IMG/VR virus record: IMGVR_UViG_3300049005_000023
Location: 1 to 55,510 of that record
Reading direction: 5' to 3' (one strand)
From: a virus
Lineage: Duplodnaviria; Caudoviricetes
Length of the DNA stretch: 55,510 bases
Shown one piece after another: positions 1 to 13,626 of the stretch. The notes under the pieces are model-generated. The model saw nothing but the letters and a program-made list of their open reading frames with translations. It ran no database searches and was not told the DNA's origin. The position numbers and the translations under genes are program-made. The stretch's first letter is position 1; each line of letters begins with the position of its first letter.

Positions 1-127
1 GGCGCCCGCCAAGGAACGCCCGAGAGTTGACGGGGTCGCGCACCCAACCGTGAAGCCGCTCGAGCTGATGCGCTGGCTCGTACGTCTTGTTACACCACCC
101 GGCGGTGTGGTGCTGGAGCCTTTCGCC
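1..127. repeat. 127-bp terminal direct repeat identical to 55384-55510 (circular assembly overlap)
   Basis: Exact identity of 1-127 with 55384-55510; the MTase ORF reads in frame across the junction. Confidence 0.97.
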
Positions 128-265
128 GGCTCCGGTACGACGGTCGAGGCGGCACTGCTGGAAGGCTTCCACTGCGTCACCATCGAGCGGGAGGCGGACT
201 ACCTCCCGCTCATCTTTCAGCGAATCCAAAGAGTTACACCCGGCCTGGGTGAATCAACTGCTTGA
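2..265 (+). CDS. C-terminal part of N6-adenine/N4-cytosine DNA methyltransferase (continues from 54374)
   Basis: HPTVKP and VLEPFAGSGTT SAM-binding motifs, in frame with the DPPY-containing ORF at the window end. Confidence 0.92.
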   Translation, partial: APAKERPRVDGVAHPTVKPLELMRWLVRLVTPPGGVVLEPFAGSGTTVEAALLEGFHCVTIEREADYLPLIFQRIQRVTPGLGESTA

Positions 266-269
266 GGGC

Positions 270-299
270 TTTACAATGTCTATAGAATCTCTATAGACT
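270..299 (+). promoter_or_regulatory. Sigma70-type promoter TTTACA-N18-TAGACT containing palindromic operator GTCTATAG-aatct-CTATAGAC (278-298)
   Basis: Motif inspection; upstream of gene at 344 with GAGGAGG RBS. Confidence 0.75.
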
Positions 300-343
300 G
301 GCGGTGCGGACACGGCGCCCGCACTGACCGAGGAGGGGGTCTC

Positions 344-583
344 ATGGCGGTTATCTGGACGGTGTACAGCGGGACGTTGAGCGGTCCGGCATCACGGACA
401 ACCCAGGACCCGGCCCAGGCCTTGCAGTGGGCGCGCGGGCTCGGACCGGAAGCCTTCGTGACGAATGACCGCGGCGGCGAACGGCGATTCGTCTGGTCGC
501 CAGAGTCCGACCGGCGCTGCGTCGGCGAGCTGCACAACGCGGTCATCGACCGGGCGCTCTCGCTGTCGGCGGTCTCCGGGTGA
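344..583 (+). CDS. Hypothetical protein (79 aa)
   Basis: Strong RBS; GTGA overlap with whiB. Confidence 0.7.
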   Translation: MAVIWTVYSGTLSGPASRTTQDPAQALQWARGLGPEAFVTNDRGGERRFVWSPESDRRCVGELHNAVIDRALSLSAVSG

Positions 584-921
584 GTGCCCACCGGGAGCAC
601 CGCCGCCGCGTTCTGGCGCGGTGGGCCGACTCGCTGAACGGCGCCTGGCGCCGCCGGGCGGCCTGCAACCCGGCGACCGGCGTTGCCCCGGACCCGTCCC
701 GTATCCCGGCGTTCTTCTCGCTCGAGGATGCCGACACGGTGTTCGATCTGCAGAAGCAACGTGAGGCGGCGCTGTTCTGCAACACGGCGTGTCCCGTGCA
801 GGCCGAGTGCCTGCAGTTCGCGCTGAACGTAGACGAGGAGTACGGCGTCTGGGGTGGTACTACGGAGACTGAACGGCGCTTGCTGGCGCGGAAGGTCCGC
901 AAAGGTCGGCAGCCAGTCTAG
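580..921 (+). CDS. whiB: WhiB-family Fe-S transcription factor
   Basis: Four Cys (AAC...FC..ACPV..EC), GVWGG turn and TETERR. Confidence 0.93.
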   Translation: MSAHREHRRRVLARWADSLNGAWRRRAACNPATGVAPDPSRIPAFFSLEDADTVFDLQKQREAALFCNTACPVQAECLQFALNVDEEYGVWGGTTETERRLLARKVRKGRQPV

Positions 922-987
922 CGCCGGGCACGCGATAGGCTGTACTATAACCAGACGATGAATTTTCTATACCAAGGAGGGTGCCGC

Positions 988-1269
988 ATGGCCACCGCCA
1001 ATGACCGCCGCGACACTTCCATCCGGCCTCCGGGAAGCAAGTACCCGTGGGCGCAATGGCAGGACGGGCAGTGGTGGACCATCGAGGCGGGCAAGGATTT
1101 CGACGCCACGATCAAGGCCATGCGAGACCAGCTTCACGTTCGTGCGAAAGCGACCAGCGTCAAGGTCCGCACGCGCACGGACAAGGTCTCCAAGATCACC
1201 TTCATCTTCCAAAGGGCCGGCGAGTCCGACGCCGCTTTCGAGAAGCGTTACATCAAAACTTCCAGCTGA
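988..1269 (+). CDS. Hypothetical small basic protein (KYPW motif), possibly DNA-binding
   Basis: AAGGAGG RBS before ATG 988. Confidence 0.7.
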   Translation: MATANDRRDTSIRPPGSKYPWAQWQDGQWWTIEAGKDFDATIKAMRDQLHVRAKATSVKVRTRTDKVSKITFIFQRAGESDAAFEKRYIKTSS

Positions 1270-1366
1270 GCACCACCAGACCGGCCACCCCGTTCCCGGG
1301 AAAGCCTGCCACGGCGGGCGAGTACGGCTCGGGGTGGCCGTTCCACGTACGACACCGGGAGAAGAA

Positions 1367-1804
1367 ATGCTCGAGCTCTACACCGACGGATCCGCCGGCC
1401 CGACCAACCCCGGCCCGGGCGGATGGGCGGTCACCACGCAAACCGAGATGGTCCTGACCGGCTGGTCGGCCAGTACGACGAACATCCGGATGGAAGGCAT
1501 CGCGCTGCTGGAGGCCTTCGGCTGGCTGGCCGGACGACCGGGCACCATCCACACCGACAGCCGCCTGTGGGTGGACACCATCTACCAGTGGGCGCCGCTG
1601 TGGTCCGGGCGCGGGTGGCGGAAGGCCAACGGCGAGACACCGGCCAATCTGGAGCTGGTGCAGAACCTCTTTGAGGCGTCGGTTCGCGGTGTCGCACAGG
1701 CCGTATGGGTCCGAGGCCACAACGGCAACCCAGGCAACCGCCTGGCCGACGAGTGGGCGAACAAGGCCCGTAAGCAAAGGCTCGGACGTGCCCGGGTCTA
1801 CTGA
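1367..1804 (+). CDS. rnhA: Ribonuclease HI
   Basis: YTDGS..NPGPGGW, TTNIRME, HTDS, WVRGHNG.PGN..AD motifs; ATG 1367 after ACCGGGAG. Confidence 0.95.
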   Translation: MLELYTDGSAGPTNPGPGGWAVTTQTEMVLTGWSASTTNIRMEGIALLEAFGWLAGRPGTIHTDSRLWVDTIYQWAPLWSGRGWRKANGETPANLELVQNLFEASVRGVAQAVWVRGHNGNPGNRLADEWANKARKQRLGRARVY

Positions 1805-3590
1805 TATCCGCCTGCACTGGGTGCAGACGCTGGACGACGCGTTTGCGCTCAAGAGGTGGTTAGGCGAGCGCCGCCCAGGCGGCTGGCTTGGCGTGGATAC
1901 TGAATCCGGCGGCCTCGACTGGTGGCGGGACAAGCTTCGGCTCGTTCAGTTCGGCGACCGGCATCAGGGCTGGGCGATCGAGTCGTCGGAGTGGATGGGC
2001 CTGATCAAGGAGTGTATGACGGCGTACGAAGGCCCGCAGCTGCTCTGGAACGTGAAACATGACCTGCACTTCATGGAGGTCAACGGCATCCCGACGAAAC
2101 GTTGGTGGATGCACGACGGCCGCGCGATGACACATTTGCAGGAACCGTGGCGACGCACCGGGCTGAAGCCAACCGCCACCCGCAAGCTTGGTCAGTGGGC
2201 CGGGTACGGCGAGGCGCAGCTGAAGCAGGCGATGATGGCCGGCGGCTACGGCTACCACGACATCCCCATCGAGCTGTTCTGGCAGTACTCCGCCTTCGAC
2301 ACCGTCATCACTGCGCAGACCGGTGAGGAGGTCTGGCCGGGCATTGAGCAGTCATACCGCTCGATCTACGATCTGGAGCTCGCGTCGACGTTCGTGCTGA
2401 CCGACATGGAACGCCGAGGCATCATGACGGACCGGGACTGGATGGTCCGGCATCTGGATGAGTGGACCCAAGCTCAGGACGTGATCGCGCTCCGGCTGCG
2501 AAACGACTACTGGATCGGTAACCCGGCATCGGACCGCCAAGTAGAGAAGTCGTTGCGGGATCTGGCCGGCTGGGTGCCGATCGTCTTCACGGACAAAGGC
2601 AACATCAGCCTGGAACGCGAAGTACTGCAGGGGATCGGGCATCCGATAGCCGACCTGGTGGTCGAGTGGCGCCAGCTGAAACGGCTGAGGGAGTACGCCT
2701 CCAGCCATCTGGAGCTCGCCGGTCCTGATGGGCGCCTGCACTGCAAGATCAACCCGCTGGGCACCCGCACTGGGCGCGAGTCGGCGAGCTCTCCCAATTT
2801 GCAGAACCTACCTCGCGACGACAACCGGATCCGGAACGGGTTTATTGCTTCGCCCGGTACAAAGCTTTTATTTGCCGATTATGATCAAATAGAAGGCCGA
2901 TTGTTTGCCTCTTTCAGCGGTGATGTAAATATGCTGGCAAGCATTAGATACGGAGATGAGATGACGGGCCGTGGTTACAGCGGCTACGACATGCACTCGA
3001 TGGCAGCCCGGATGATTTTCGGGATCGGGGTGGATCAGCCGGTCCCGAAAACACACCGGAACAAGGCAAAGACTGGGCAGTTCTCCAAGATCTATGGGGT
3101 CGGACTGGATAAGTTTGCCGCGCGCAACGGTATGACGCTGGATGAGGCGCGGGCCTTCTTTGCGGTGTACGAGGGGCAGTTTCCGGAGACCCGGAAATCC
3201 GGGTTCCAGTCCCGTATCACCAAGGAGCTGATCGACCGGGAGTGGGCCGAGGGTGAGGCCTACGTACTGACGGCGTACGGCCGAAAGGAGCCGTGCTACC
3301 CGAGCCAGGCGTACAAAGCCTTGAACTACAAGATTCAGGGCACCGCGGCCGACGTGCTGAAAGACCGGAAGGTTGCCCTGAGCAAGACCTGGCTGGGCGA
3401 GTGCATGCTGCTGAGCATTCACGACGAGGTGATTTTTGAAATCCCGGAAGACTCCGTAGCCGAAGCCGTACGAACAGTCCGAGAGACGATGCCGGAGCGA
3501 GACAAATTCCAGGTCCCCCTAACTGTTGGGATCGCAATCGGGGATCGGTGGGGCGAGAAGACCGACGTACCGGCATCCTATGCGGCATGA
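1788..3590 (+). CDS. polA: DNA polymerase family A (3'-5' exonuclease plus polymerase, no 5'-3' exonuclease)
   Basis: ExoI VDTES, TRTGR.S..PNLQNLP, motif A ADYDQIEGR, motif B RNKAKTGQF..IYG, IQGTAAD, motif C IHDEV. Confidence 0.96.
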   Translation: MPGSTDIRLHWVQTLDDAFALKRWLGERRPGGWLGVDTESGGLDWWRDKLRLVQFGDRHQGWAIESSEWMGLIKECMTAYEGPQLLWNVKHDLHFMEVNGIPTKRWWMHDGRAMTHLQEPWRRTGLKPTATRKLGQWAGYGEAQLKQAMMAGGYGYHDIPIELFWQYSAFDTVITAQTGEEVWPGIEQSYRSIYDLELASTFVLTDMERRGIMTDRDWMVRHLDEWTQAQDVIALRLRNDYWIGNPASDRQVEKSLRDLAGWVPIVFTDKGNISLEREVLQGIGHPIADLVVEWRQLKRLREYASSHLELAGPDGRLHCKINPLGTRTGRESASSPNLQNLPRDDNRIRNGFIASPGTKLLFADYDQIEGRLFASFSGDVNMLASIRYGDEMTGRGYSGYDMHSMAARMIFGIGVDQPVPKTHRNKAKTGQFSKIYGVGLDKFAARNGMTLDEARAFFAVYEGQFPETRKSGFQSRITKELIDREWAEGEAYVLTAYGRKEPCYPSQAYKALNYKIQGTAADVLKDRKVALSKTWLGECMLLSIHDEVIFEIPEDSVAEAVRTVRETMPERDKFQVPLTVGIAIGDRWGEKTDVPASYAA

Positions 3591-3601
3591 CATATACGTG
3601 C

Positions 3602-3632
3602 TTGACACGGTATCTATAGCATGGTTATATCG
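3602..3632 (+). promoter_or_regulatory. Promoter (perfect TTGACA -35, imperfect -10 near 3625-3633) with degenerate CTATAG-N5-TTATAT operator, driving the pentamer-repeat RNA and RAMP gene
   Basis: TTGACA at 3602-3607; same architecture as the other operator-containing promoters. Confidence 0.7.
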
Positions 3633-3639
3633 TCGTATC

Positions 3640-3706
3640 GACATGGCCGAGCTAGTCGGGCCGAGGTCAGGCATGGTACGGCGCGCCGCGTCGGGGCCAG
3701 GCGAGG
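3640..3706 (+). ncRNA. Pentamer (GGY-like + NN) repeat tract 1, putative guide RNA
   Basis: 13 in-phase units: GAC-AT GGC-CG AGC-TA GTC-GG GCC-GA GGT-CA GGC-AT GGT-AC GGC-GC GCC-GC GTC-GG GGC-CA GGC-GA, then GG. Confidence 0.8.
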
Positions 3707-3714
3707 AGAACACA

Positions 3715-3755
3715 GGACGATCGGCAAGCACCAGAGTTCGAGCCTCTGGCGTCCA
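3715..3755 (+). ncRNA. tRNA-like mini-structure (acceptor-like stem plus T-arm) between the two tracts; putative processing signal
   Basis: GGACG (3715-19)/CGTCC (3750-54) stem; CCAGAG/CTCTGG stem closing a 7-nt TTCGAGC loop. Confidence 0.6.
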
Positions 3756-3837
3756 CGCTGGTCAGGGCACGGCAAGTCGGTGTTTGGCGTTGCAAGGCCC
3801 GGCAAGTCTCCGCATAGCAGGGCTCCGCAAGGCAAGG
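3756..3837 (+). ncRNA. Pentamer (GGY-like + NN) repeat tract 2, putative guide RNA
   Basis: 16 in-phase units: CGC-TG GTC-AG GGC-AC GGC-AA GTC-GG TGT-TT GGC-GT TGC-AA GGC-CC GGC-AA GTC-TC CGC-AT AGC-AG GGC-TC CGC-AA GGC-AA, then GG. Confidence 0.82.
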
Positions 3838-3861
3838 GCACCACAACAACCGGGAGAAGTA

Positions 3862-4440
3862 ATGATCAAGTTCCGTATCGACATTCAAGGCACAGCGCCG
3901 CTACTGATGCACAGCAGCCGCTTGTCCAACCCGCTTGACCCCGCCACTAAGGCGCTGAAGAAGGTCACAGGGAAGCGCAGCAAAACCGACGAGGACCACG
4001 CCGAAGCGTCCCGCTTGGAGCATGCCGGCGGGCTCTACATCGATGCCGACCTCGGCCCATTCGTACCGGCTGAGAACATCAGCCGGAGCTTGGTGGACGG
4101 CGCGAAGCTGTCCAAGCGCGGAGTCAAGGTGACCCGTGGGCTGTTCATCGAAACAGACGTGAACGCGCTAGTTTACCGAGGACCCCGCGACGTGGAAGGG
4201 CTGTGGAAGGACGAGAATTTCCGGCACATGGCTTCGGTCAAGGTCGGCACGTCCAGAGTGATGCGCTGCCGCCCGCACTTCAAGGATTGGCAGGTCTCGG
4301 CAGACGGCCTGCTCGACGCCAACATCCTGGATCTGGACGAGCTGTCGGACATCGCGACCACTGCCGGTCAGGTCATCGGGCTCGGTGACTGGCGTCCGCG
4401 CTTCGGCCGCTATACCGCAACGATCACCGAGCTGAAGTAA
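3862..4440 (+). CDS. Stand-alone Cas7/RAMP-like RNA-binding protein (192 aa)
   Basis: N-terminal strand IDIQGTAPLLMH, P..NI..SL helix, V.R.RP.F..W hairpin and C-terminal glycine loop AG..IGLGDWRPRFGRY typical of RAMPs; ACCGGGAG RBS. Confidence 0.78.
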   Translation: MIKFRIDIQGTAPLLMHSSRLSNPLDPATKALKKVTGKRSKTDEDHAEASRLEHAGGLYIDADLGPFVPAENISRSLVDGAKLSKRGVKVTRGLFIETDVNALVYRGPRDVEGLWKDENFRHMASVKVGTSRVMRCRPHFKDWQVSADGLLDANILDLDELSDIATTAGQVIGLGDWRPRFGRYTATITELK

Positions 4441-4988
4441 TGGCACCGTTCGAACCGATCGGTCCTACGGCACGCTGGAAAACCGTTTACGAAGAGGTTC
4501 TGATCAAGAAGCGCCGGGATCAGATCGCCACGTATGAAGAGATCGGCGAGGTTCTAGGGCTGCACCCGGAAGATGCGCGGCATACCATTCAGATGGTCGT
4601 ACGCCGGGCAGCCAAAGAGCTACTGCTGCGCAACGATACTGCGTTGGAGGCAATCAACAACGTCGGGTATCGGCTGGTCATGCCGGACGAGCACACCGGC
4701 CTTGCACGTCGGCAGCAGAGACGTTCCAGCCGGGCACTGCAGCAGGGACACCAGCAAGTCACGCACGTCGACTTCACCAAGATGGATCCTGAAGCCCGCA
4801 AGGCAATAGAGACAATGGCGAACGCCTTTGCGATGCAGATGGAGTTTAACCGTCGTCTGGACGTTCGGCAGCAAAACCTGAAGAAGGCGTTGAACTCGGT
4901 GGTCAAACGGCAGGATCGCACGGAGGAAGAAACCCGACAGCGCCTCGAAGATCTAGAGCGGAAGATCCGCGAGTTGGGCGACAACTAA
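4440..4988 (+). CDS. Winged-HTH plus coiled-coil protein, translationally coupled to the RAMP gene
   Basis: TYEEIGEVLG helix, NNVGYRLV wing, C-terminal heptads; TAATG overlap. Confidence 0.65.
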   Translation: MAPFEPIGPTARWKTVYEEVLIKKRRDQIATYEEIGEVLGLHPEDARHTIQMVVRRAAKELLLRNDTALEAINNVGYRLVMPDEHTGLARRQQRRSSRALQQGHQQVTHVDFTKMDPEARKAIETMANAFAMQMEFNRRLDVRQQNLKKALNSVVKRQDRTEEETRQRLEDLERKIRELGDN

Positions 4989-5458
4989 TGCGCCTTTTTG
5001 TCCTGGACCCCGGCAAAGCCTCCGGCTGGTTCTGCGTTGACTTCACCGTCGGCGGCTGGACCGGCGGGGAGCTCCCGCATGAGCAGATGCTGGACTGGCT
5101 GGACCCTCGGCACGGCAACGACTCGCCGCTGACCCTGTGGCGTCTGGACCGTGTGGTCACGGAGGCTTTCCGCATCGGCCCGCAGACCTACCAGAACGTC
5201 TCGTCCGACGCCGAGGCCTGGTCCATCAAGCAGATCGGCGCCGTCGAGATGTGGTGCCGCCGTTTGCAGTTGCCTATGGACCGCCAGATGCCGTCAGCGA
5301 TGAAGTACGACGAGGACGGCAGCAAGCTGAAGAAACTGGATTGGTGGCCCGCGATGCCCGGCGTGAAAGGCGAGAAGGGTCACCGCCGCGCCGCGGCGAA
5401 GCACGCGCTGAAGTGGGGCGTCGACCACCGCTTCATCGACCCGGGGGTGTTCCTGTGA
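4988..5458 (+). CDS. RuvC-like Holliday junction resolvase
   Basis: N-terminal FVLDPGKASG, VVTEAF; size and context fit actinophage RuvC-like proteins. Confidence 0.7.
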   Translation: MRLFVLDPGKASGWFCVDFTVGGWTGGELPHEQMLDWLDPRHGNDSPLTLWRLDRVVTEAFRIGPQTYQNVSSDAEAWSIKQIGAVEMWCRRLQLPMDRQMPSAMKYDEDGSKLKKLDWWPAMPGVKGEKGHRRAAAKHALKWGVDHRFIDPGVFL

Positions 5459-7443
5459 TCGCCGACTACGATCCTGCCAGCAACCACTTCATCCTGCACA
5501 CCAGCCTCACCGAGAAAGACCTGGCACGCCAGGTCCCCGGCGCATCCTGGCAGGAGCGGATGCCGAACACCTACACCGGTCAGCCCGGTACCTGGGTGGT
5601 CACCGCGAGCTGGCCGGCGTACTGCGCGATCAACGGGATCTTCAAGCACACCCTCACCCCCTCGGAAAGCTACCGCGAATGGGCAGAGACGTCCTGGAAA
5701 ACCCTCTACGAGCCGCTGACGCTGACACGGTTCAGCACCGACGCGAACATCGGCCCGGGTCCGATTGCCGCGCGGCTGTGGCCGTTGCAGCGCGTCGCCG
5801 TGCAGACGATGGTGTGGGCGGAGAAGTACCTGGTCCTGGACGACATGGGCGGGGGGAAGACGGCCACCACCCTCGCGGCGCTGAAGCTGGCCGCCGCGGT
5901 GCACGGTGAGGCCGCGGTGTTCCCGGCGATCATCGTCTGCCCGAACAAGGTCCGCCGGTCGTGGAAGAAGATCGCCCATGAGGATCTCGGCGACGGCAAG
6001 GGCCCGCTGTGGCCCGAGCTCCGGCTGGAGGCCATGCCGAAGGGCAAGGCCGCACAGCGCAAGGTGCTGGAGCGGTTCCTGCGGAAAGAGCACGATCCCG
6101 AAGGCGGCAACTGTGCTCCCGAGATCTGCGGCGGGACACGCTACGACCCGTGCGGGCGAGCGTGGCCTGAAGGCGACCCGGACACCTGGCCCCAAGTGCT
6201 CGTTATCAACTGGGAGGCGCTGCGCCTGCTGTCCCGGGTGGAGAAGTTCGGGCAGATCGAGCTCGCCGAGAAGGACCGCACCCCCGGCCCGCTGAACGAG
6301 ATCCCGTGGCGGACCTTCGCCGCCGACGAGGTGCACCGGGCGAAGAACCGTACCGCGCTGCAGACCCGCGCGCTGAAGGCGATCGCGAACGGTACGCCGT
6401 CCGTCGGCACCGGACCCTGCCGGTTCCGATGGGGGCTCACCGGCACTCTCGTATCCGAAGATGCTGCCGAGGCCTGGAGCATCTGGAACCTGATCGACCC
6501 TGGCGCGCACCCGGCGTACACCCGGTTTGTGGACCGGTACGCCACACAGCTCTACAACGGCTGGGGTGGGATGGAGATCGGCGGCCTGAAGCCGGAGACC
6601 GCGGAGGAGTACCACGCCGCGCACCTGCCCTTCAGCATCCGCAGGCTGCGTGAGCAGTTCGACCCGTTCAAACCGAGGCGGGTGCACCAGACGCTGACTG
6701 TCCCGATGGAGACCAAGCAGGCCAAGGCGTACCACGAGCTCCGTAAGAACATGGCTGCTGCGCTGGACGGCGGCACGCTGACCGCGACCGAGAACATGCA
6801 CAAGTCCAACCGGCTCTTCCAGCTTGCGCAGGCATGGGGCGAGATGGTCGACAAGGGCCGGCGCGACCCGATCAGCGGCGAGCCGATCCTGGACCTGTTG
6901 CTGAAGGCACCTTCCAACAAGGTCAGCGCGATGCTGGAGATCATCGAGGACTTCGGCATCTCTTCGCGGCCGGGTCCGGGCAACGGCCGGGCGATCGTCT
7001 TCGGCGCGCAGTCCCGCCAGCTGATCGGCCTGTGCGAAGACGCGCTGAACAAGGCAAAAATCCCATACAGCCTGATTGCCGGCGGGATGTCAGACAGCGC
7101 ACAAGACCTGCAGGAACGCCGTTTCGAGACGGGGCAGACCCGGGTATGCCTGTGCGTGGTCTCGGCTGCGAAGGAAGGCCTGAACAGCCTGGTGCGCGCG
7201 GACACGCTGGTCTTCCTGCAGAAGTCCGACAGCAACAACGACAATGAGCAGTTCCGAGGCCGTATCGACCGGCCGGGGCAGACTGCGAAATCGGTGACCT
7301 TCATTGACGTGGTCTCGGAGGGGACGCTGGAGGAGTTCGTGCAGAAGGAACGGCTGGAAGAGAAAGCCGCAACCCTGCAGCAGTTCCTGCAGGACGCCCG
7401 GGTGCTGCAAGAGATGCTCCGGTTCCCAGGGACGTCGGGGTGA
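5455..7443 (+). CDS. SNF2-family helicase
   Basis: DDMGGGKT, ADEVHRAKN, GLTGT, EGLN, QFRGRIDRPGQ. Confidence 0.93.
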   Translation: MIADYDPASNHFILHTSLTEKDLARQVPGASWQERMPNTYTGQPGTWVVTASWPAYCAINGIFKHTLTPSESYREWAETSWKTLYEPLTLTRFSTDANIGPGPIAARLWPLQRVAVQTMVWAEKYLVLDDMGGGKTATTLAALKLAAAVHGEAAVFPAIIVCPNKVRRSWKKIAHEDLGDGKGPLWPELRLEAMPKGKAAQRKVLERFLRKEHDPEGGNCAPEICGGTRYDPCGRAWPEGDPDTWPQVLVINWEALRLLSRVEKFGQIELAEKDRTPGPLNEIPWRTFAADEVHRAKNRTALQTRALKAIANGTPSVGTGPCRFRWGLTGTLVSEDAAEAWSIWNLIDPGAHPAYTRFVDRYATQLYNGWGGMEIGGLKPETAEEYHAAHLPFSIRRLREQFDPFKPRRVHQTLTVPMETKQAKAYHELRKNMAAALDGGTLTATENMHKSNRLFQLAQAWGEMVDKGRRDPISGEPILDLLLKAPSNKVSAMLEIIEDFGISSRPGPGNGRAIVFGAQSRQLIGLCEDALNKAKIPYSLIAGGMSDSAQDLQERRFETGQTRVCLCVVSAAKEGLNSLVRADTLVFLQKSDSNNDNEQFRGRIDRPGQTAKSVTFIDVVSEGTLEEFVQKERLEEKAATLQQFLQDARVLQEMLRFPGTSG

Positions 7444-7550
7444 CAGAACGTGCTCCGTACTGCGTCTGCCCGTCCCGGGCATCGAAGTACAAGCAGCTGC
7501 CCGGCTCGGTTTTCTGGGGTCTGGCCTGCTGCGGGAGACCCCTCCGGAAA

Positions 7551-7571
7551 GACTATGAAAAATCTATAGCC
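7551..7571. promoter_or_regulatory. Degenerate operator GACTATGA-aaaat-CTATAGCC
   Basis: Matches the dispersed CTATAG-N5-CTATAG motif; AT-rich island upstream of the nuclease gene. Confidence 0.6.
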
Positions 7572-7625
7572 AGTGCTACCGTTGCCCCTCCGGGGCCGGG
7601 ACGCCCCGAAACACCGGGAGAACTC

Positions 7626-8588
7626 TTGACTGACACACGCGTGATGAAGTTCGCCAACTCCGAGCTGCAGACTTTCAAAAGGTGCAAACGGAAGTGGTGG
7701 CTGACGTTCTACCACCGCCTGCGCCCCCGTCGCGAGGGCATCGGTCCGCTGAGCATCGGCAACATGGTGCATGCACCGCTGGAGGCGTACTACGCCACAC
7801 CCGACCGCGACCCCGCCACCTTCCAGTGGAAGCGAGTCCTGGACGCGCACTACCAGGACCGGCTCAACCACCCGGAGTTCCCGCACGACAAGGCCGCAGA
7901 GATGCAGTCCGAGTACGAGCTGGCTCAGCTGATGCTCGCTGGCTACTTCGAGTGGCTGGTGGACGAGGGCGCCGACTCAGACATCGAGATCATCGCGGCC
8001 GAGCGTGAAGTCGAGGTGTACCTGGACACAATTCTGGAAACCAGGGTCCACCTCATCGGGAAGCTCGACACAGAGATCCGGCTGAAGGCCAACGGGCAAC
8101 GAGCCTTCGAGGACCACAAGACGGTCGCAGCGCTCGGCATTCTGCCCAAGCAGATCGAGATCAACGAGCAGTTCCGGTTCTACGGCCTTCTGCAGCGGAT
8201 GGAGGCCCTGCAGCGCGGCACTGGTGAAACGCAGTTCGCGCACGGCGGGGTCTTGAACATGCTGCGGAAGGTGAAGCGGACTGCCGGCAGCAAACCGCCG
8301 TATTACGGCCGGGCCGGGGTGGAGCACAACGACACGGTCTACACGACATTCTTCACCCGGGTCTGGGGTGAGGTGTACGACCTGCTGACCCTGCGAGCCA
8401 GGCTGGACGCGGGCGGAGACCCCCAGCAGGTCGCCTATCCAACGCCGGGGATGGATTGCGATTGGAGTTGTCCCTTCCGGGTGATCTGCCCGCGCTTCGA
8501 TGACGGCTCCGACGTCGGGGCGATCATCGAGGGCGAGTTCGAGAAACACGATCCTTACAAACGGTATGTAGAAGTGGAGAAGGGCTGA
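7626..8588 (+). CDS. PD-(D/E)xK exonuclease (RecB/Cas4-like, probable Fe-S)
   Basis: SELQTFKRCKRKW, IG..VH..LE, GKLD, EDHKT, C-terminal CDWSCPF..IC; TTG start after ACCGGGAG (start uncertain). Confidence 0.88.
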   Translation: MTDTRVMKFANSELQTFKRCKRKWWLTFYHRLRPRREGIGPLSIGNMVHAPLEAYYATPDRDPATFQWKRVLDAHYQDRLNHPEFPHDKAAEMQSEYELAQLMLAGYFEWLVDEGADSDIEIIAAEREVEVYLDTILETRVHLIGKLDTEIRLKANGQRAFEDHKTVAALGILPKQIEINEQFRFYGLLQRMEALQRGTGETQFAHGGVLNMLRKVKRTAGSKPPYYGRAGVEHNDTVYTTFFTRVWGEVYDLLTLRARLDAGGDPQQVAYPTPGMDCDWSCPFRVICPRFDDGSDVGAIIEGEFEKHDPYKRYVEVEKG

Positions 8589-8884
8589 TGGCCCGGTACG
8601 AGAGAACCAAAATCGTGTTCGAGCTCCGCGCTGAAGCAGCCATGCTGATTACCGCCGTGAAGACGTCCCGGGTGATGACCAAGGACGCCGACATGCTGGA
8701 GCGGGACAAACAGGCTGTCACCGCGTTCGAGGAGATCCGCGCTGCGCGTGAGGAGCAGCTTCGCCACCTGCTGAGCTGGCTACAGGATCTGGCCACGAAC
8801 CCATTGCACTCCATGACCGAGACGTCCAGCTTGGCCGAAGAAACGGCTAGTCGCCTGAAGAAGATTCTGGACGGAGAGGCATGA
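8588..8884 (+). CDS. Hypothetical protein
   Basis: Overlap-coupled to both neighbours. Confidence 0.75.
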   Translation: MARYERTKIVFELRAEAAMLITAVKTSRVMTKDADMLERDKQAVTAFEEIRAAREEQLRHLLSWLQDLATNPLHSMTETSSLAEETASRLKKILDGEA

Positions 8885-9681
8885 CCCAGCAGAGCACCCT
8901 CACCGCGCTGATCCACGGCGAGTCCGGCGTCGGCAAGTCCGATCTGGCCGACACGATCCCCGGCCCCCGTCTTGTCCTGGACGCTGAGGCCGGATCGGAG
9001 TACACCCCCTCGTGGCCGAAGCAGATCTGGAATCCGGCCTTCCCACCGCCCGGTACGCCCGGCTGCGACCCCGCGCTACAGGAGTGCGCGGAGACGGTTC
9101 GGGTAGTCGTGCAGGACTGGAAAACTTGGGAGCAGGTGCACTACTGGATTGCCTCTGGGCAGCACCCGTTCCAGTCCATCATCCTGGACAGCCTGACTGA
9201 GATCCAGAAACGCTGCCGCGACGCCATCCGCGGCACTGAGCAGATGCAAACCCAGCACTGGGGTGAGCTCCTCATTCAGATGGAGACCGCCGTACGCCAG
9301 CTCAGGGACCTGGCCAAGTCACCGTACAACCGGCTGATGAACGTCGTCATTCTGGCGCTGACCAACCAGAAAGAACGCGGGAGACCCTTGGCACAAGGCT
9401 CTCTCGCAGACTCCCTGCCCGGCTTCGTGGACGTCGTAGGCTACATGTCCTCGCAGTCGTCGGCCGACGGGCAGCTGCAGCGCTGGCTGGAAGTCCAGCC
9501 GCACAGCATCTTCGTGGCCAAAGACCGCACCAAGGTGATCACGCATTACCTGTCGTTTCCCGGCGCTCCGGGCTACGTATTGGTCCGCGACCACCTCAAT
9601 CCGCAGCCGAACAGCTGGACGCTCACAGAAGCCGTCCAGGCCCTTGAAACCCGCTACAACTCAGGAGGAAACCCGACGTGA
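8881..9681 (+). CDS. AAA ATPase (Sak4/AAA_24-like recombination protein)
   Basis: Walker A GESGVGKS, LVLDAEAG, ILDSLTE, VDVVGY, AKDRT. Confidence 0.88.
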   Translation: MTQQSTLTALIHGESGVGKSDLADTIPGPRLVLDAEAGSEYTPSWPKQIWNPAFPPPGTPGCDPALQECAETVRVVVQDWKTWEQVHYWIASGQHPFQSIILDSLTEIQKRCRDAIRGTEQMQTQHWGELLIQMETAVRQLRDLAKSPYNRLMNVVILALTNQKERGRPLAQGSLADSLPGFVDVVGYMSSQSSADGQLQRWLEVQPHSIFVAKDRTKVITHYLSFPGAPGYVLVRDHLNPQPNSWTLTEAVQALETRYNSGGNPT

Positions 9682-10661
9682 GCACCGTACTGTGGAACGA
9701 CGCCCTGCAAGGAGTCACCCCGACCACTGGCGGGCAGCCGCTGCCGCCGGCCACATACCGGTTCCGGCCAATCGCGGGCGAAGGCAAAGACAACAGCGGC
9801 GGTGCGCCGATGCTGTCGCTGCAGCTTGAGGTCATCTCCGGGCCGATGGCCGGCCGGAAGCACTACCACTACGAGAACCTGCCGAAGGGCAACAGCGACG
9901 CCGACAAGCAGCGGATGGGGTACTTCCTCGGCCTCTGCCAGGCTTTCGGGATCACCGGAGAAATGCTCGGCCAATGGTTCCAGGGACAGCCGGTAAGCAA
10001 GGAAACTCTGGAATACCTGGCCAAGTACATCGTGCAGTCCGGCCGGGTCGTGAAGGCGACACTGCGCCCGCGCCGCAACGATGAGGCCCGCGTCGACGCG
10101 AGCGGCTGGGTGCCGGACGACGGCATCGAGCCGGAACCACCAAAGCAGGCCGCCGTTGCGGCGCCAATGCCGGGCGCGCCGGAGAGCTTCGGCCCGCCGC
10201 AGACTCCAAACAGCTTCGCCGGTGGGCCGCAGGCTCCCAGTGGGCTGCCGCTCGGCGGCTTCCCGGGTTCTGTGCAACAGGGCGGTGCGCCGTCTGCCGC
10301 GCCGGACTGGGCAACTCAGCAGCAGGTGCAGGGGCAGGCTCCGCAGCAGATCACCGGACCGGGTCAGGCCGCTCCCGCTGCACAACCGCAGGCCGCCGGG
10401 ATGAGCCAATTCCAGCAGCTGGCCGCGGCGCAGTTCCCTCAGTCTGGCCAAGCGTCCGCTCCGCAGCAGGACGCCTTCCCAGGGCAGCAGTTCCCGGGGC
10501 AGGTCAACCCGGCGAACTTCCCAGCGACGGCGCAGCCAAACCCGGGGCAGCAGATGCCCGGAATGCCACAGGCCGCCCCACAGCAGAACTCCGCGCCGAC
10601 CGGCCAGCCGCAGGGCGGGTTCCCGCTGATCGGCGGTCAGCCTCCGCAGGCGAACATCTGA
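9678..10661 (+). CDS. Probable ssDNA-binding protein (DUF669-like) with long Gln/Pro/Ala-rich tail
   Basis: PLP..TY and MLSLQLEVISGP.AGRK pattern; follows the Sak4-like ATPase. Confidence 0.65.
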   Translation: MSTVLWNDALQGVTPTTGGQPLPPATYRFRPIAGEGKDNSGGAPMLSLQLEVISGPMAGRKHYHYENLPKGNSDADKQRMGYFLGLCQAFGITGEMLGQWFQGQPVSKETLEYLAKYIVQSGRVVKATLRPRRNDEARVDASGWVPDDGIEPEPPKQAAVAAPMPGAPESFGPPQTPNSFAGGPQAPSGLPLGGFPGSVQQGGAPSAAPDWATQQQVQGQAPQQITGPGQAAPAAQPQAAGMSQFQQLAAAQFPQSGQASAPQQDAFPGQQFPGQVNPANFPATAQPNPGQQMPGMPQAAPQQNSAPTGQPQGGFPLIGGQPPQANI

Positions 10662-10699
10662 CGTACGCTGACCGAGCAAACTCAGTAGAGGGCGAAGAC

Positions 10700-10742
10700 G
10701 TGGCCCCGGCATCCTTCCGGACGGTTGGAGAGCCGGGGTCGC
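10700..10742. terminator. Hairpin at the convergence of the two transcription arms
   Basis: GTGGCCCCGGC/GCCGGGGTCGC stem between convergent genes. Confidence 0.65.
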
Positions 10743-10747
10743 GCACG

Positions 10748-11077
10748 TTAGGGCATTACGGTGTACGTCCCGCAGTCGACGGCGTCCGTCTCTGGGCTGT
10801 CTACTACCTTCACAAACACCCTGTACTTCGTCTTTGTGTTGTTCACCAGTGCCGCGGTAACGAGCTTCTTGACCTGGTATACAGAATCGGTGACCGCTCC
10901 GCTCTCCGCGTGCGGAGCCTCCCACGGGTACGTGGCCTGGTCGTCGTTCTTCTGGCTGTCCAGCACGTGAGCGACCCAGTATACGCACTCGGAGATATCC
11001 GCACCGGTCAGCTCGATGATGGTCGCAGTGACGAACTCAACATCCCCACGCTTCAGCGTTCGCGGCGTGACTACCAC
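10748..11077 (-). CDS. Hypothetical virion-associated protein
   Basis: Beta-rich 109 aa; end of a structural gene block. Confidence 0.65.
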   Translation of the reverse strand: MVVTPRTLKRGDVEFVTATIIELTGADISECVYWVAHVLDSQKNDDQATYPWEAPHAESGAVTDSVYQVKKLVTAALVNNTKTKYRVFVKVVDSPETDAVDCGTYTVMP

Positions 11078-12624
11078 TTCACAGCTCCCTTCCAGCGGCC
11101 GGGCTGCAGGGAGCCGGCGAAACGTCCTGTAGCAATCGTCCCACTGAATCGTCTCGCTTCGATCTCGCCGACCAGCGTCAGATCCCGGTCGGCTAACACG
11201 GGGCCGAGGTGGAGCACGATGAAGTCTGTCAGCCCTGCATCATCGCTGAGCACGTGGTTCGCGGCCAGTACAACTTGCGCACCGTCGGACAGCCCCACGT
11301 CATCGCTGTAACTTGCTCCGATCGCGAGGTTGTCCTGGTCACCGAGACCCGTGGTGTCAAGGAAGTTCAGCGCGATGATCTTGGTCAGCGTGACGGTGTC
11401 GGTCAGACTCTCGTTGTCGGCCGCAGTGACGGAGAGTTGGCGGAACAGGTCGATCTGAACGGCGTCCGTCAGGCCGAGACTGTCGCCCAGGCTTTTGCCT
11501 GTGTCAAGCGCGGTGACATCGACTAACTGCTCGGTGTCGGTCGGCGCCAGTACGCCAGAGACAACCAGCTGCACTTGCGCCGAGTCCGTCAGCCCAATCG
11601 GGTCGGTTGCACCCTTTCCGACGTCCGTCGCGGTCGAATCCGACAGCGCCACAACGTCGGACGGCAGCACCTGCCGATCGAATATGATTGTCGCGGTGTC
11701 GGACAGCCCTTCTGCGTCTGCCGGGACCTGCGCCCGGGCTACCGTCACCGTCGCGCTATCGGTGAGTCCTTCGGAGTCAGAGAGCACCGGTGAAACCGAC
11801 AGCGCTACCGCGTCCGTCAGCCCCTCGGCGTCAGCCATGCTCTTGCCAACGTCCAGCACAGCGCTGTCGGCCAACCCTTCCGGATCGACCGGGTTCTTTC
11901 CGGTACTGAGCGCAGCGCTGTCCGTTAGGCCTTCAGCGTCGGATGGCGCCTGCGTTAGGTTGCTGCCCCCAGCACCTGCGGCTTTCAGCCCGTACAGCCC
12001 GGCGACCTTGACGGTACTAACTGCCCCGGATGTAGCTCCCGTCGCTGACTGCGCTCCTGTACTGCTGGCGATTTCGTGTGCCGCGTGCAGAACTGTGGTT
12101 CCGCCGTCGTCTTTGGTGTAGCCAGTCGGCTGCACTGTCGCGGTCGCGTCGTTGAACGTCTGGCACGCCCAGCCCAACCCCGCCAAGGTGGCCGTGGTGA
12201 CCGCTGTATCCGCAATCGAGGTGGTGTTTGCGCCATTCGTGGACGTGCTGACGGTCCCATCCAGCGGGTCCGCGCCGGTCATGTCGACCCCGACCCATCC
12301 CTGCGCCAGCAGCATGGCCCAGTACGACGAGGCGGTGGTGACGGTGTAGCTACCAGACGTAATGGCCGCCCCCCAGGCCATCTTCAACCACAACGTGCCG
12401 CCCGACGGGACGGCTACCGAGACAGACAGAAACTCATGGCCGACAAAGCCTGTCGGCCACGTTAGAGACGGCGTAGCCTGTCCCGCGGATGCCCAGCAGC
12501 CCCAGATCAGGACGACGCAGTCAGTGGAAAGCGAGCTCGGCACGAAGGCGGTTGATTTGCTGGCTTGCTGCGTCCCACCCTCGTCGACCCCCGAGCGCGT
12601 GAACCCCCTGAAGGTGACGCCCAT
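11071..12624 (-). CDS. Virion fibre-like protein with about 13 D-x-x-GL-x-D repeats
   Basis: T/S/G-rich N-domain followed by 18-22 aa repeats (DAEGLTD, DPEGLAD, DSEGLTD...). Confidence 0.7.
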   Translation of the reverse strand: MGVTFRGFTRSGVDEGGTQQASKSTAFVPSSLSTDCVVLIWGCWASAGQATPSLTWPTGFVGHEFLSVSVAVPSGGTLWLKMAWGAAITSGSYTVTTASSYWAMLLAQGWVGVDMTGADPLDGTVSTSTNGANTTSIADTAVTTATLAGLGWACQTFNDATATVQPTGYTKDDGGTTVLHAAHEIASSTGAQSATGATSGAVSTVKVAGLYGLKAAGAGGSNLTQAPSDAEGLTDSAALSTGKNPVDPEGLADSAVLDVGKSMADAEGLTDAVALSVSPVLSDSEGLTDSATVTVARAQVPADAEGLSDTATIIFDRQVLPSDVVALSDSTATDVGKGATDPIGLTDSAQVQLVVSGVLAPTDTEQLVDVTALDTGKSLGDSLGLTDAVQIDLFRQLSVTAADNESLTDTVTLTKIIALNFLDTTGLGDQDNLAIGASYSDDVGLSDGAQVVLAANHVLSDDAGLTDFIVLHLGPVLADRDLTLVGEIEARRFSGTIATGRFAGSLQPGRWKGAVKW

Positions 12625-12625
12625 G

Positions 12626-12910
12626 TCACATCTTCAGCAGAAGGAACGTCCACCGGTAGCTGTGATCCGCAGAATCGCTGTTGGCCACGTTACCTACGAA
12701 GCTGTTCGCCACCCCGTCAGTAACGTTGATCATCGCAGCACTGATGGAAAGATGCACAGAGTCTCCGGAGTAGTAGCCCCAGCTCAAAATCTGGTAGCCA
12801 TCGGGGGCTGTGTACTCGTAGATGGTGCTGTCGTCATGCGCGCTTGCGGGTACGTTGATCCACCCCGTGTTGGCGTACTCCACCTCAAACATAACGGGGA
12901 TGTGCGGCAC
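12626..12910 (-). CDS. Hypothetical minor structural protein
   Basis: Fills the gap between structural genes; GTG start inferred. Confidence 0.6.
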   Translation of the reverse strand: MPHIPVMFEVEYANTGWINVPASAHDDSTIYEYTAPDGYQILSWGYYSGDSVHLSISAAMINVTDGVANSFVGNVANSDSADHSYRWTFLLLKM

Positions 12911-12911
12911 C

Positions 12912-13496: not shown

Positions 13497-13567
13497 GGTT
13501 TCCTCCGCCGCTCGGGAAGTAGAAGTCTGGGCTCATCGTATCTGCCGGACGGCTTCGGTTGGTGGGG

Positions 13568-13597
13568 TTGCGCTGTAACTATAGAAAAGCTATAGTC
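13568..13597 (+). promoter_or_regulatory. Promoter TTGCGC-N17-TATAGT with operator AACTATAG-aaaag-CTATAGTC
   Basis: Motif inspection; upstream of + strand gene 13627 (AGGAGG RBS). Confidence 0.8.
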
Positions 13598-13626
13598 ATT
13601 GCATCACCACATATCAGGAGGACGAG

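What the first reader, a model, noticed from the sequence alone, without database searches (positions are those of the whole stretch)
3640..3699. Tract 1 decodes to an allelic variant of the adjacent polA gene
The NNs are AT CG TA GG GA CA AT AC GC GC GG CA, i.e. codons I R Y G (D/E) (Q/H) (M/I) T A A G (H/Q). This phage's polA at 2943-2978 reads ATT AGA TAC GGA GAT GAG ATG ACG GGC CGT GGT TAC (IRYGDEMTGRGY). That gives 18/24 matches in the gapped register (14/16 over the first eight units), in codon phase, about 700 bp from the tract. One mismatch is the synonymous Arg swap CGN to AGA, a rare codon at this GC content and one of the few silent changes that alters a non-wobble base. By my rough estimate the match alone has a few-percent chance of occurring somewhere in the genome; phase, proximity and overlap with the AT-rich patch strengthen it. 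Inference: the guide targets polA of close relatives while the resident allele is resistant, like a free-standing homing endonuclease beside its target gene.
Basis: partly seen in the sequence, partly recalled or inferred. Interest (0 to 1): 0.9.

Follow-up and report, generated by a model that had tools for sequence, protein, structure and literature searches.

The report
VIPR guide RNA targeting sibling polA
This stretch is a guide RNA of the recently described phage "VIPR" RNA-guided gene-silencing system, and its two-letter code matches the DNA polymerase gene of a sibling phage much better than the phage's own copy next door, so it looks like a weapon aimed at close relatives.

Summary
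Window 3638/3643-3707 is a run of 13-14 pentamers NN-GGY. It lies 5' of a gene (3862-4440) whose product matches the solved SUSP1 Vipr protein (E=3e-36). So this is a vrRNA of a VIPR system, described in 2026 preprints: the NN bases pair with DNA and skip every third base.

The 18/24 gapped match to the resident polA at 2943 is real and is the best in the genome (P about 0.05 with shuffled guides). At the homologous polA site, the only close sibling phage found (G001, polA 70% identical) matches 22/24, or 24/26 with unit 0. That sibling has a NUMOD4/HNH endonuclease gene where the window has the VIPR cassette. The resident's mismatches include synonymous Ser and Arg codon-family switches.

The second tract (3759-3838) decodes, antisense, to the terminase motif IDFGFTNPFVLQ. 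It matches 23-24/24 in 45 of 54 pattern hits.

The two tracts are separated by a covarying tRNA-like minihelix. The main texts of the VIPR preprints do not mention one.

Verdict: a new member of a known kind, with some new features.

The parts
1671..3590 (+). polA (family A DNA polymerase with 3'-5' exonuclease domain), the resident copy of the gene that vrRNA1 decodes to
   Evidence: PF00476 E=3.7e-63 and PF01612; phrog_17 E=4e-102
2840..2959 (+). Patch inside polA (motif A region) that is AT-rich and depleted in G/C at third codon positions; it overlaps the 5' end of the guide footprint
   Evidence: 90-nt GC 0.38-0.39. GC3 is 0.27-0.53 here against 0.73-1.0 at the same codons of G001. 26 of 33 identical-aa codons differ at wobble, against 64 of 172 elsewhere
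2940..2981 (+). Resident polA site homologous to the vrRNA1 target (SIRYGDEMTGRGYS); a mismatched, presumed immune allele
   Evidence: 18/24 for units 1-12 at 2943-2978; 18/26 and 18/28 with the flanking units. G001 scores 22/24, 24/26 and 25/28
3602..3631 (+). Promoter-like TTGACA - 18 nt - TATATC just 5' of tract 1 (seen by eye only)
   Evidence: Sequence. The consensus scanner did NOT call it (0 found). Similar AT-rich TTGAC../TATA.. boxes sit directly before the first tract in other loci
3638..3707 (+). vrRNA1 repeat tract: unit 0 (TCGAC) plus 13 units NN-GGY-like, ending in GAGGA; the NN are the guide
   Evidence: Seven of units 1-12 are canonical GGY; 5 are AGC, GTC or GCC; unit 13 is GGA
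3715..3755 (+). tRNA-like minihelix separating the two vrRNAs: 5-bp acceptor-like stem GGACG/CGTCC, 11-nt linker with GG, 6-bp T-stem, TTCGAGC T-loop, then A-CGC
   Evidence: It is the only such element in the genome on either strand. Homologous elements in 22 other sources. Covariation. Not called as a tRNA or as any Rfam family
3759..3838 (+). vrRNA2 repeat tract: 16 units (TG AG AC AA GG TT GT AA CC AA TC AT AG TC AA AA) ending in AAGGC AAGGG; the guide is antisense to a terminase large-subunit motif
3852..3859 (+). Shine-Dalgarno-like GGGAGAAG of vipr
   Evidence: Sequence; equivalent GGAG boxes in homologous loci
3862..4440 (+). vipr (192 aa), the RAMP-like protein that polymerises on GGY repeats
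   Evidence: phmmer against PDB 36pp_D 'SUSP1 Vipr protein' E=3e-36, residues 5-188 aligned; phrog_4652 E=3.8e-58
4440..4988 (+). vap-like accessory gene (182 aa), conserved partner directly 3' of vipr
   Evidence: Homologue follows vipr in 42 of 119 loci searched. 33% identical over 106 aa to MakoManhole gp77, annotated 'DNA binding protein'. phrog_5926 E=3e-10. No Pfam, NCBIfam or PADLOC assignment

Best explanation
The polA/vipr intergenic region encodes a two-unit vrRNA array of a VIPR (Viral Interference Programmable Repeat) system. The published mechanism, shown for SUSP1 and P. fulva systems and inferred here, runs as follows. Vipr protomers (gene 3862-4440) polymerise along the GGY triplets. 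They display the NN dinucleotides, which pair with double-stranded DNA while skipping every third base (the wobble base). The result is an R-loop triplex that blocks transcription.

For this locus I infer the following. vrRNA1 (3638/3643-3707) is transcribed from a promoter just upstream. It is aimed at the polA allele of sibling phages that lack the cassette (G001-type: SIRYGDQMTAGGY). The resident polA, 0.7 kb away, differs at 6 of the 24 guide positions (8 of 26 with unit 0) and so escapes. Three of those differing bases come from synonymous Ser and Arg codon-family switches.

vrRNA2 (3759-3838) is aimed, antisense, at the conserved IDFGFTNPFVLQ motif of the terminase large subunit of a different, widespread family of high-GC actinophages. 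The resident phage does not have that terminase family.

A tRNA-like minihelix (3715-3755) between the tracts most likely serves as the processing signal that separates the two guides. Cleavage by host tRNA-processing enzymes is my inference.
For: Vipr homology: E=3e-36 to PDB 36pp_D.

vrRNA definition met: 13 and 16 NN-GGY units. In 69 tracts from 43 loci (872 units) 5' of vipr homologues, the position that the search did not select on is G in 87% of units. The NN positions have entropy 1.94 and 2.00 bits.

vipr-vap operon: a vap homologue follows vipr in 42 of 119 loci.

Published rule and threshold: NNx, at least 80% NN match, no self hits at or above 80% (Results and Methods read).

vrRNA1:
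- The self maximum is 18/24, or 75%.
- G001 polA scores 22/24 at the exactly homologous, wobble-aligned site; the next best site in G001 scores 17.
- With unit 0 the scores are 24/26 for G001 against 18/26 for the resident.
- G001 is syntenic at 70-75% nt identity. It has about 600 bp with an HNH gene in place of the vrRNAs, vipr and vap, and no Vipr hit.
- Seven more distant polA loci (six homologues at or below 34% identity, one of them fetched twice, plus Trine) score only 14-16/24.

vrRNA2:
- 45 of 54 IMG/VR hits to units 2-9 extend to 23-24/24 over units 1-12 (6 are 24/24).
- The 12 listed read (I/V)DFGFTNPFVL(Q/K) in the antisense frame; the site in L177 lies in a 456-aa TerL ORF. The skipped base is the wobble base.
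- That family is annotated as terminase large subunit in Thermobifida and Streptomyces phages.
- The window's own TerL (36051-37589, phrog_979) is unrelated.

Minihelix: 29 instances 5' of vipr genes against 0 in downstream controls of equal length and 0.0 in shuffles. Compensatory changes occur in 9 of 11 pairs.
Against: - Only one close sibling (G001) exists in the collections I could search, and the metagenome hit is the same contig. The allele story therefore rests on n=1.
- G001 keeps 2 mismatches, in units 10 and 12, towards the 3' end. The cryo-EM preprint resolves that end's protomers in all intermediates and sees further protomers added in the 3'-to-5' direction (passages seen).
- In what I read I found no measured mismatch tolerance. 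Whether 75% is safe and 92% is lethal is therefore unknown.
- Five of the 12 triplets in tract 1 are not GGY.
- G001 is a 39%-complete fragment, so a vipr elsewhere in that genome is not excluded.
- There are no expression or processing data.
- The promoter was not called by the consensus scanner.
- vrRNA2 matches only 24-26 of 32 positions over all 16 units (75-81%). The named phages I fetched reach only 17-21/24.
Confidence: 0.82

Rival explanations
1. The tract is a VIPR vrRNA, but its similarity to polA is coincidental. Its real target would be some other mobile element not present in the databases.
For: The self-match alone is only P about 0.044-0.055 genome-wide. Three other IMG/VR pattern hits reach 20-21/24. 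Only one sibling supports the polA reading.
Against: The 22/24 hit is at the exactly homologous codon positions of the neighbouring gene's orthologue. All 4 position-1/2 differences between the two alleles favour the guide. Unit 0 adds 2/2. The other hits are not wobble-aligned in any long ORF, and 4-5 of the 8 unforced positions matching is expected by chance.
Confidence: 0.05
2. vrRNA1 acts on the phage's own polA. The partial (75%) match would give weak, tunable self-repression of replication rather than an attack on relatives.
For: The best self hit in the genome is polA, 0.7 kb away and in codon phase. VIPR represses transcription rather than cutting DNA.
Against: The published surveys found no self hits at or above 80% and lower self scores than non-self scores. 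The guide fits the sibling allele better at every position where the two differ. The cassette is mobile and sits in unrelated contexts elsewhere, so a polA-specific housekeeping role would be an oddity.
Confidence: 0.06
3. The period-5 GGY tracts are a protein-binding platform in the vipr 5'UTR, like the TRAP-binding leader, that controls vipr translation, and the NN carry no information. This was my own first hypothesis.
For: Tract 2 runs to within about 14 nt of the vipr Shine-Dalgarno sequence. The spacing of triplets with 2-nt spacers resembles TRAP sites (recalled knowledge).
Against: Both NN strings decode to real, wobble-aligned protein-coding targets in other phages. The downstream protein is a Vipr homologue whose mode of RNA binding is solved. 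An added autoregulatory effect of Vipr binding next to its own ribosome-binding site is not excluded.
Confidence: 0.03

Closest known systems
Type II VIPR system of Escherichia phage SUSP1 (vipr, vap1, vrRNAs); preprints 10.64898/2026.04.26.720920 and 10.64898/2026.04.26.720927
   Same: The Vipr protein is homologous (E=3e-36). vrRNAs are made of GGY/NN pentamers in the 9-16 unit range. A small accessory gene lies directly 3' of vipr. Decoding with a 1-nt skip lands on wobble-aligned coding targets in other phages on either strand. No self hit reaches 80%.
   Different: Here both vrRNAs lie 5' of vipr, and the last one runs into its ribosome-binding site. In SUSP1 one vrRNA is upstream and three are downstream. 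The tract ends in an RRGGR unit and no SUSP1-type pseudoknot tail was seen. A tRNA-like minihelix separates the units. The triplets are looser (GNC). vap has no detectable similarity to anything in GenBank phages by tblastn. The targets are an essential replication gene of a sibling phage and a terminase, not a satellite.
Hammerhead-ribozyme-interspersed vrRNA arrays of type I and V VIPR (same preprint, text and legend of fig. S19)
   Same: A structured RNA element sits between successive vrRNAs and presumably defines their ends.
   Different: Here the spacer is a tRNA-like acceptor/T-arm minihelix, not a self-cleaving ribozyme, so cleavage would depend on host enzymes (inferred). The word 'tRNA' does not occur in the main texts of the three VIPR preprints, and 'tRNA-like' does not occur in the fourth paper that mentions vrRNAs. 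The supplements could not be read.
Solo vrRNAs of SUSP1-family phages that target relatives' vipr or vrRNAs with lower self-match (preprint 10.64898/2026.10.15.759431, section 8 read)
   Same: The guide is directed at the allele carried by close relatives, and the phage's own copy scores lower, which avoids autoimmunity.
   Different: The target here is polA, the gene next to the cassette, and the targeted sibling lacks VIPR altogether. 'Polymerase' does not occur in the main text of that preprint or of the discovery preprint.
Free-standing homing endonuclease genes beside their target gene in phages (recalled general knowledge, e.g. T-even seg/mob genes; not checked in a paper here)
   Same: A selfish cassette is inserted next to an essential conserved gene. 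It attacks the allele of cassette-free relatives, and the linked resident allele is immune.
   Different: No DNA cleavage is known for type II VIPR; it represses transcription. So gene conversion into the target is not an expected direct outcome. The sibling G001 carries a real NUMOD4/HNH gene at the same site.
Class 1 CRISPR crRNA-Cas7 filaments
   Same: RAMP protomers polymerise on a guide RNA and interrupt pairing periodically (as stated in the preprint).
   Different: There are no repeats and spacers of CRISPR type, no cas genes and no adaptation module. The period is 5 nt, with only 2 informative bases per protomer.

Membership tests
VIPR system (Vipr + vrRNA + vap) | A Vipr (minimal RAMP) protein gene | tested here: met
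   Window 3862-4440 against PDB 36pp_D 'SUSP1 Vipr protein': E=3e-36, aligned over residues 5-188 of 192
VIPR system (Vipr + vrRNA + vap) | An adjacent non-coding tract of roughly 9-16 tandem YNNGG (GGY/NN) pentamers with conserved GGY and hypervariable NN | tested here: met
   13(+1) and 16 units at 3638-3707 and 3759-3838. Clade-wide over 872 units: G 96%, G 87%, C/T 100%; NN entropy 1.94 and 2.00 bits (positions 3 and 5 were used for selection, position 4 and the NN were not). Tract 1 has 5 non-GGY triplets
VIPR system (Vipr + vrRNA + vap) | A vipr-accessory (vap) gene in the locus | tested here: inconclusive
   A conserved 182-aa gene follows vipr here and in 42 of 119 loci. The MakoManhole homologue is annotated 'DNA binding protein'
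VIPR system (Vipr + vrRNA + vap) | NN decode by the 1-nt-skip rule to targets at or above 80% NN match in other mobile elements, wobble-aligned, with no self hit at or above 80% | tested here: met
   vrRNA1: 22/24 (92%) in G001 polA against a self maximum of 18/24 (75%). vrRNA2: 23-24/24 over its first 12 units in 45 of 54 hits, 26/32 (81%) at best over all 16 units, self maximum 21/32 (66%)
VIPR system (Vipr + vrRNA + vap) | vrRNAs are expressed as discrete small RNAs, bind Vipr and repress the target | not testable with these tools
   No RNA run was listed for this DNA; wet-lab work is needed
tRNA gene | Complete cloverleaf with an anticodon arm | tested here: not met
   ARAGORN finds 0 tRNA or tmRNA genes in the window. 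No Rfam family reaches E<2 in 3400-4000. The element has only acceptor-like and T arms joined by an 11-nt linker
TRAP-type RNA leader (protein ring binding spaced triplets) | Triplet repeats bound by a TRAP-family protein to control an attenuator or ribosome-binding site; spacers carry no information | tested here: not met
   The spacers decode to coding targets in other phages. The partner protein is a Vipr homologue, with no Pfam TRAP hit among the 6 neighbouring proteins scanned

The most novel reading that the evidence does not exclude
The VIPR cassette behaves as a linked weapon-plus-immunity module at the polA locus, in a duel with a homing endonuclease.

- Sibling phages carry, at the same site 3' of polA, either vrRNAs+vipr+vap (the window) or a free-standing NUMOD4/HNH endonuclease (G001).
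- vrRNA1 silences the HNH-type sibling's polA.
- The resident polA has been recoded at exactly the kind of positions a wobble-blind guide can see (Ser TCG to AGC, Arg CGG to AGA).
- The neighbouring GC3-depleted patch over motif A (2840-2959) would be the scar of, or the immunity to, the sibling's endonuclease.
- Because target and cassette are 0.7 kb apart, any recombinant that rescues a silenced polA tends to inherit the cassette. That would give homing-like spread without DNA cleavage.
- In addition, actinophage VIPR arrays would be cut into guides by host tRNA-processing enzymes at tRNA-like minihelices, a processing route not described for VIPR.
Probability: 0.25. Interest if true: 0.75.

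Novelty: new member of a known kind. Interest (0 to 1): 0.58.

Why it matters
VIPR was described only in 2026 and was characterised in enterobacterial and Pseudomonas phages. This locus does four things.

- It extends the worked examples to a high-GC soil phage, and through its homologues to Mycobacterium, Gordonia and Streptomyces (pro)phages.
- It gives a natural pair of alleles (92% against 75% or 69% NN match) that could calibrate how many mismatches VIPR tolerates.
- It shows what escape from a wobble-blind guide looks like: synonymous switches between six-fold codon families.
- It points to a tRNA-like punctuation of guide arrays, which would tie guide maturation to host tRNA-processing enzymes.

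The alternative occupancy of one site by a VIPR cassette or by an HNH endonuclease in two siblings makes inter-phage conflict at polA directly testable.

Tried and rejected
- **TRAP-like or ring-protein 5'UTR platform.** This was my first hypothesis (about). I dropped it once the PDB sequence search named Vipr.
- **RNA family and tRNA searches.** Rfam scan of 3400-4000 at E up to 10: only two chance-level hits, a lncRNA and a snoRNA. ARAGORN: no tRNA.
- **Nucleotide similarity searches.** Megablast of window 1-20000 against GenBank phages: no match. blastn 'distant' of the intergenic region: only the minihelix part matched, in two Streptomyces phages (three records).
- **polA relatives.**
  - Single-protein search in IMG/VR: 2 distant loci only.
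  - tblastn in GenBank phages: best 33% identity.
  - Search with the window+G001 alignment: G001 again plus 6 loci at or below 34% identity, all scoring 14-16/24.
- **Metagenome scan with units 1-9**: 10 hits. One is the G001 contig again. The other nine score 18-21/24 and have no polA similarity. Four of them share one sequence (MRYGEHITAAQGG, 20/24), which is not explained.
- **vrRNA2.**
  - Units 9-16 as a pattern: 47 hits, none above 22/32.
  - Its best self hit, 21/32 in tail gene 17986-19362, has P=0.043. G001's 18/32 site looks homologous to it. I did not follow this up and treat it as probably chance.
- **Promoter scan of 3450-5100:** 0 promoter-like sites.
- **RNA folding.** The MFE fold of 3636-3861 is no better than shuffles (z=-0.01). 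This fits a protein-bound single strand but proves nothing.
- **vap.** No Pfam, NCBIfam or PADLOC family, no PDB relative, and no tblastn match in GenBank phages.
- **Public sequencing runs.** No RNA holder was listed. Laying contigs of 3 soil DNA runs gave the identical sequence, which is possibly the source, plus low-depth fragments. There were no variants or joints in the region of interest.
- **Closed or unavailable.** Supplements of the preprints are closed, so VIPR type assignments, the vrRNA lists and any mention of tRNA-like spacers there could not be checked.
- **Not run.** No structure prediction or complex prediction was run, because the sequence match to a solved Vipr made them unnecessary.
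Full report
**What is in the sequence.** Read in 5-nt register from 3643, the region is ATGGC CGAGC TAGTC GGGCC GAGGT CAGGC ATGGT ACGGC GCGCC GCGTC GGGGC CAGGC GAGGA. This is 12-13 units of two free bases followed by a GGY-like triplet. A possible unit 0 (TCGAC) lies at 3638. A scan for at least 7 of 10 consecutive units with G at position 3 and C at position 5 finds only two such places in the 55,510-bp record. They are this one and a second tract from about 3749, both in the 271-bp gap between polA (1671-3590) and the next gene. That site is the top score on both strands; the next scores are 17 and three sites at 16. With shuffled guides the genome-wide maximum reaches 18 in 4.4% (unit order permuted) or 5.5% (bases shuffled) of 1000 trials each.

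**What it is.** The gene 3' of the tracts (3862-4440) belongs to phrog_4652. It matches one solved structure, 36pp chain D, 'SUSP1 Vipr protein', at E=3e-36 over residues 5-188. A literature search led to three 2026 preprints on VIPR systems. I read the Results, Discussion and four Methods sections of 10.64898/2026.04.26.720920. I read passages of 10.64898/2026.04.26.720927. I read the outline and three sections of 10.64898/2026.10.15.759431. They report the following:
- vrRNAs consist of 9-16 YNNGG repeats.
- One Vipr protomer binds each repeat.
- The NN pair with double-stranded DNA with one base skipped per unit, and the skipped base usually falls on the codon wobble position.
- Natural targets are called at 80% NN match or more.
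- No self hits reach that level.
- The outcome is transcriptional silencing of competing mobile elements.

**Homologous loci.** An alignment of five homologues retrieved 28 loci from prokaryote genomes and 80 from IMG/VR.
- Of 117 rows scanned, 42 have a period-5 tract scoring 9 or more within 350 nt 5' of the gene, against a background of 2-5.
- After removing 7 duplicates, 38 of 105 loci have such a tract.
- Over 69 tracts (872 units) the middle triplet base, which was not used in the search, is G in 87% of units. The NN have 1.94 and 2.00 bits of entropy.
- A homologue of the next gene (4440-4988, the vap position) follows vipr in 42 of 119 loci. None of those loci has a window-like polA or SNF2 gene, so the cassette moves as a unit.

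**Test of the interpretation.** No close relative of this phage is in GenBank phages. I scanned IMG/VR for units 1-8 written as NNx and got 7 hits.
- One hit, L123 (record G001, a 31,950-bp fragment with GC 0.66), reads ATC CGG TAC GGC GAC CAG ATG ACC GCC GGC GGC TAC. This is 22/24, and 23/26 with unit 13.
- It lies in a polA 70% identical in protein, at exactly the homologous codons. It is wobble-aligned.
- The next best site in G001 scores 17.
- With unit 0 the scores are 24/26 for G001 against 18/26 for the resident. Units 0-9 are perfect in G001.
- Within units 1-12 the two alleles differ at four first- or second-codon positions, and all four differences make G001 fit the guide.
- Two resident mismatched codons are synonymous family switches: Ser TCG to AGC and Arg CGG to AGA. 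Across the 293 aligned codons, 7 of 44 conserved Ser/Arg/Leu codons are switched in this way. Two of the 7 lie in the 14-codon footprint. That enrichment is post hoc and modest.
- The other six pattern hits score 17-21/24. The three highest were checked and none is wobble-aligned in a long ORF.
- Six more distant polA homologues and Trine score 14-16/24.
- The metagenome scan recovered only the same contig.

**The sibling lacks the cassette.** G001 is collinear with the window at 70-75% nucleotide identity through polA, the phrog_1981 gene, the SNF2 helicase and beyond. The window's 3590-4985 is replaced there by about 600 bp, and no Vipr is detected in the fragment, which is 39% complete. The replacement holds a 183-aa ORF with NUMOD4 (E=3.4e-13) and HNH_3 (23.0 bits, just under the 24.8 cut-off). 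It is a free-standing homing-endonuclease-like gene.

**The second guide.** Tract 2 (3759-3838) has NN = TG AG AC AA GG TT GT AA CC AA TC AT AG TC AA AA.
- Units 2-9 written as a pattern hit 54 IMG/VR contigs.
- In 45 of them units 1-12 match 23/24 (39 contigs) or 24/24 (6 contigs). The other 9 score 16-19.
- The 12 matches listed read (I/V)DFGFTNPFVL(Q/K) on the opposite strand. In L177 the site lies in a 456-aa ORF with a Walker A motif, and the skipped base is the wobble base.
- Relatives of that ORF are annotated as terminase large subunit in Thermobifida phage P1312 and Streptomyces phages. Those named phages match less well, at 17-21/24.
- Over all 16 units the best score is 26/32. The last four units either belong to the tail or point to an allele not in the collection.
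- The window's own terminase (36051-37589, phrog_979) is unrelated.

This independent decoding shows that the NNx code is live in this locus.

**The spacer.** Between the tracts lies GGACG-ATCGGCAAGCA-CCAGAG-TTCGAGC-CTCTGG-CGTCC-A-CGC (3715-3758). This is an acceptor-like stem, a linker with GG, and a T-arm with a tRNA-type T-loop.
- A descriptor search found 36 such elements in 23 sources.
- On 105 non-redundant loci it found 29 elements 5' of vipr, against 0 in downstream controls of equal length and 0.0 in shuffles. It found exactly one in the whole window.
- 18 of 38 tract-bearing loci have at least one.
- On 16 elements of identical geometry, 9 of 11 pairs show changes on both sides. On 26 elements, 5 of 6 T-stem pairs do.
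- The descriptor required pairing, so the high percentage of paired cells (97% and 100%) is partly by construction. The invariant GG in the linker and the ACGC after the stem were not required.
- The elements alternate with tracts: tract-TLS-tract, or TLS-tract-TLS-tract. They precede the first tract where no promoter-like box is seen.
- I infer that they are processing signals analogous to the hammerhead ribozymes described between vrRNAs of other VIPR types.
- The word 'tRNA' is absent from the main texts of the three VIPR preprints, and 'tRNA-like' from the fourth paper that mentions vrRNA. The supplements were closed.
- Similar minihelices without tracts occur 5' of genes in Streptomyces phages Yosif and phiScoe55.

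**The AT-rich patch.** GC in 90-nt windows falls to 0.38 at 2840-2959. This is one of two such places in the genome.
- The effect is at third codon positions: GC3 is 0.27-0.53 here against 0.73-1.0 in G001.
- 26 of 33 identical-aa codons differ at wobble here, against 64 of 172 elsewhere.
- 20 of 33 end in A/T here, against 6 of 33 in G001.
- Wobble changes are invisible to VIPR, so this patch is not explained by escape from vrRNA-type guides. Immunity to the sibling's endonuclease, or a conversion tract, are possibilities that I could not test.

**Verdict.** The tract is a vrRNA of a VIPR system, a kind of system already in print, so the locus is a new member of a known kind. New details worth follow-up are the linked target and immune-allele arrangement, the synonymous codon-family switches, the HNH or VIPR alternative at one site, and the tRNA-like punctuation of the array.

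Noticed in passing
L123:9890-10441 (minus strand; record G001): The sibling phage carries a 183-aa free-standing NUMOD4 + HNH_3 endonuclease gene exactly where the window carries vrRNAs+vipr+vap, directly 3' of polA.
   Followed up: partly
window 2840-2959: GC3-depleted, AT-rich patch over polA motif A. 26 of 33 conserved codons differ at wobble from the sibling and 20 of 33 end in A/T. This is not explained by VIPR escape, because VIPR skips the wobble base.
   Followed up: partly
window 47752-47949: The only other place in the genome with 90-nt GC below 0.42 (minimum 0.29). It spans the gap between the ORFs 46733-47854 (+) and 47876-50503 (-, primase). It could be a promoter or origin region.
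   Followed up: no
L011 about 1504-1547 (Streptomyces phage Yosif) and L012 about 1206-1249 (phiScoe55): The same tRNA-like minihelix, preceded by GTGTGACAGTGT and followed by a Shine-Dalgarno sequence and a gene, but without GGY tracts. In Yosif it lies inside the annotated start of an HNH endonuclease CDS, whose start may be mis-set.
   Followed up: partly
L009 2170-2486 (Mycobacterium phage LittleE): A vipr-vap cassette with two tracts (about 13 and 14 units) and two minihelices sits on the opposite strand inside the tail-gene block, between the tape-measure gene and the minor tail genes.
   Followed up: no
L010 2320-2365 (M. abscessus prophage prophiBWHA-1): Two direct copies of GGTTGGTCTAGG just 5' of the minihelix and vrRNA; possibly an operator.
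   Followed up: no
L236, L239, L240, L242 (metagenome contigs): Four contigs share one sequence reading MRYGEHITAAQGG that matches vrRNA1 at 20/24. It has no polA similarity, and 18 of the 24 positions were forced by the search pattern, so it is probably chance.
   Followed up: partly
window 18730-18777 (minus strand) and G001 15205-15252: The best self hit of vrRNA2 (21/32, P=0.043) falls in tail gene 17986-19362 (phrog_1887). G001's joint-best hit (18/32) reads a similar peptide (LSITGYDDSKYISKNK against LTIQGYDHSRTISRRK), so the two sites look homologous. Probably chance, but not excluded as a third target family.
   Followed up: no
L034, L037, L083, L094: GGY tracts 5' of vipr homologues also occur outside Actinobacteria: in a Burkholderiaceae MAG, a Hyphomicrobiales MAG and lower-GC viral contigs. 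There they are followed by plain hairpins rather than tRNA-like minihelices.
   Followed up: no
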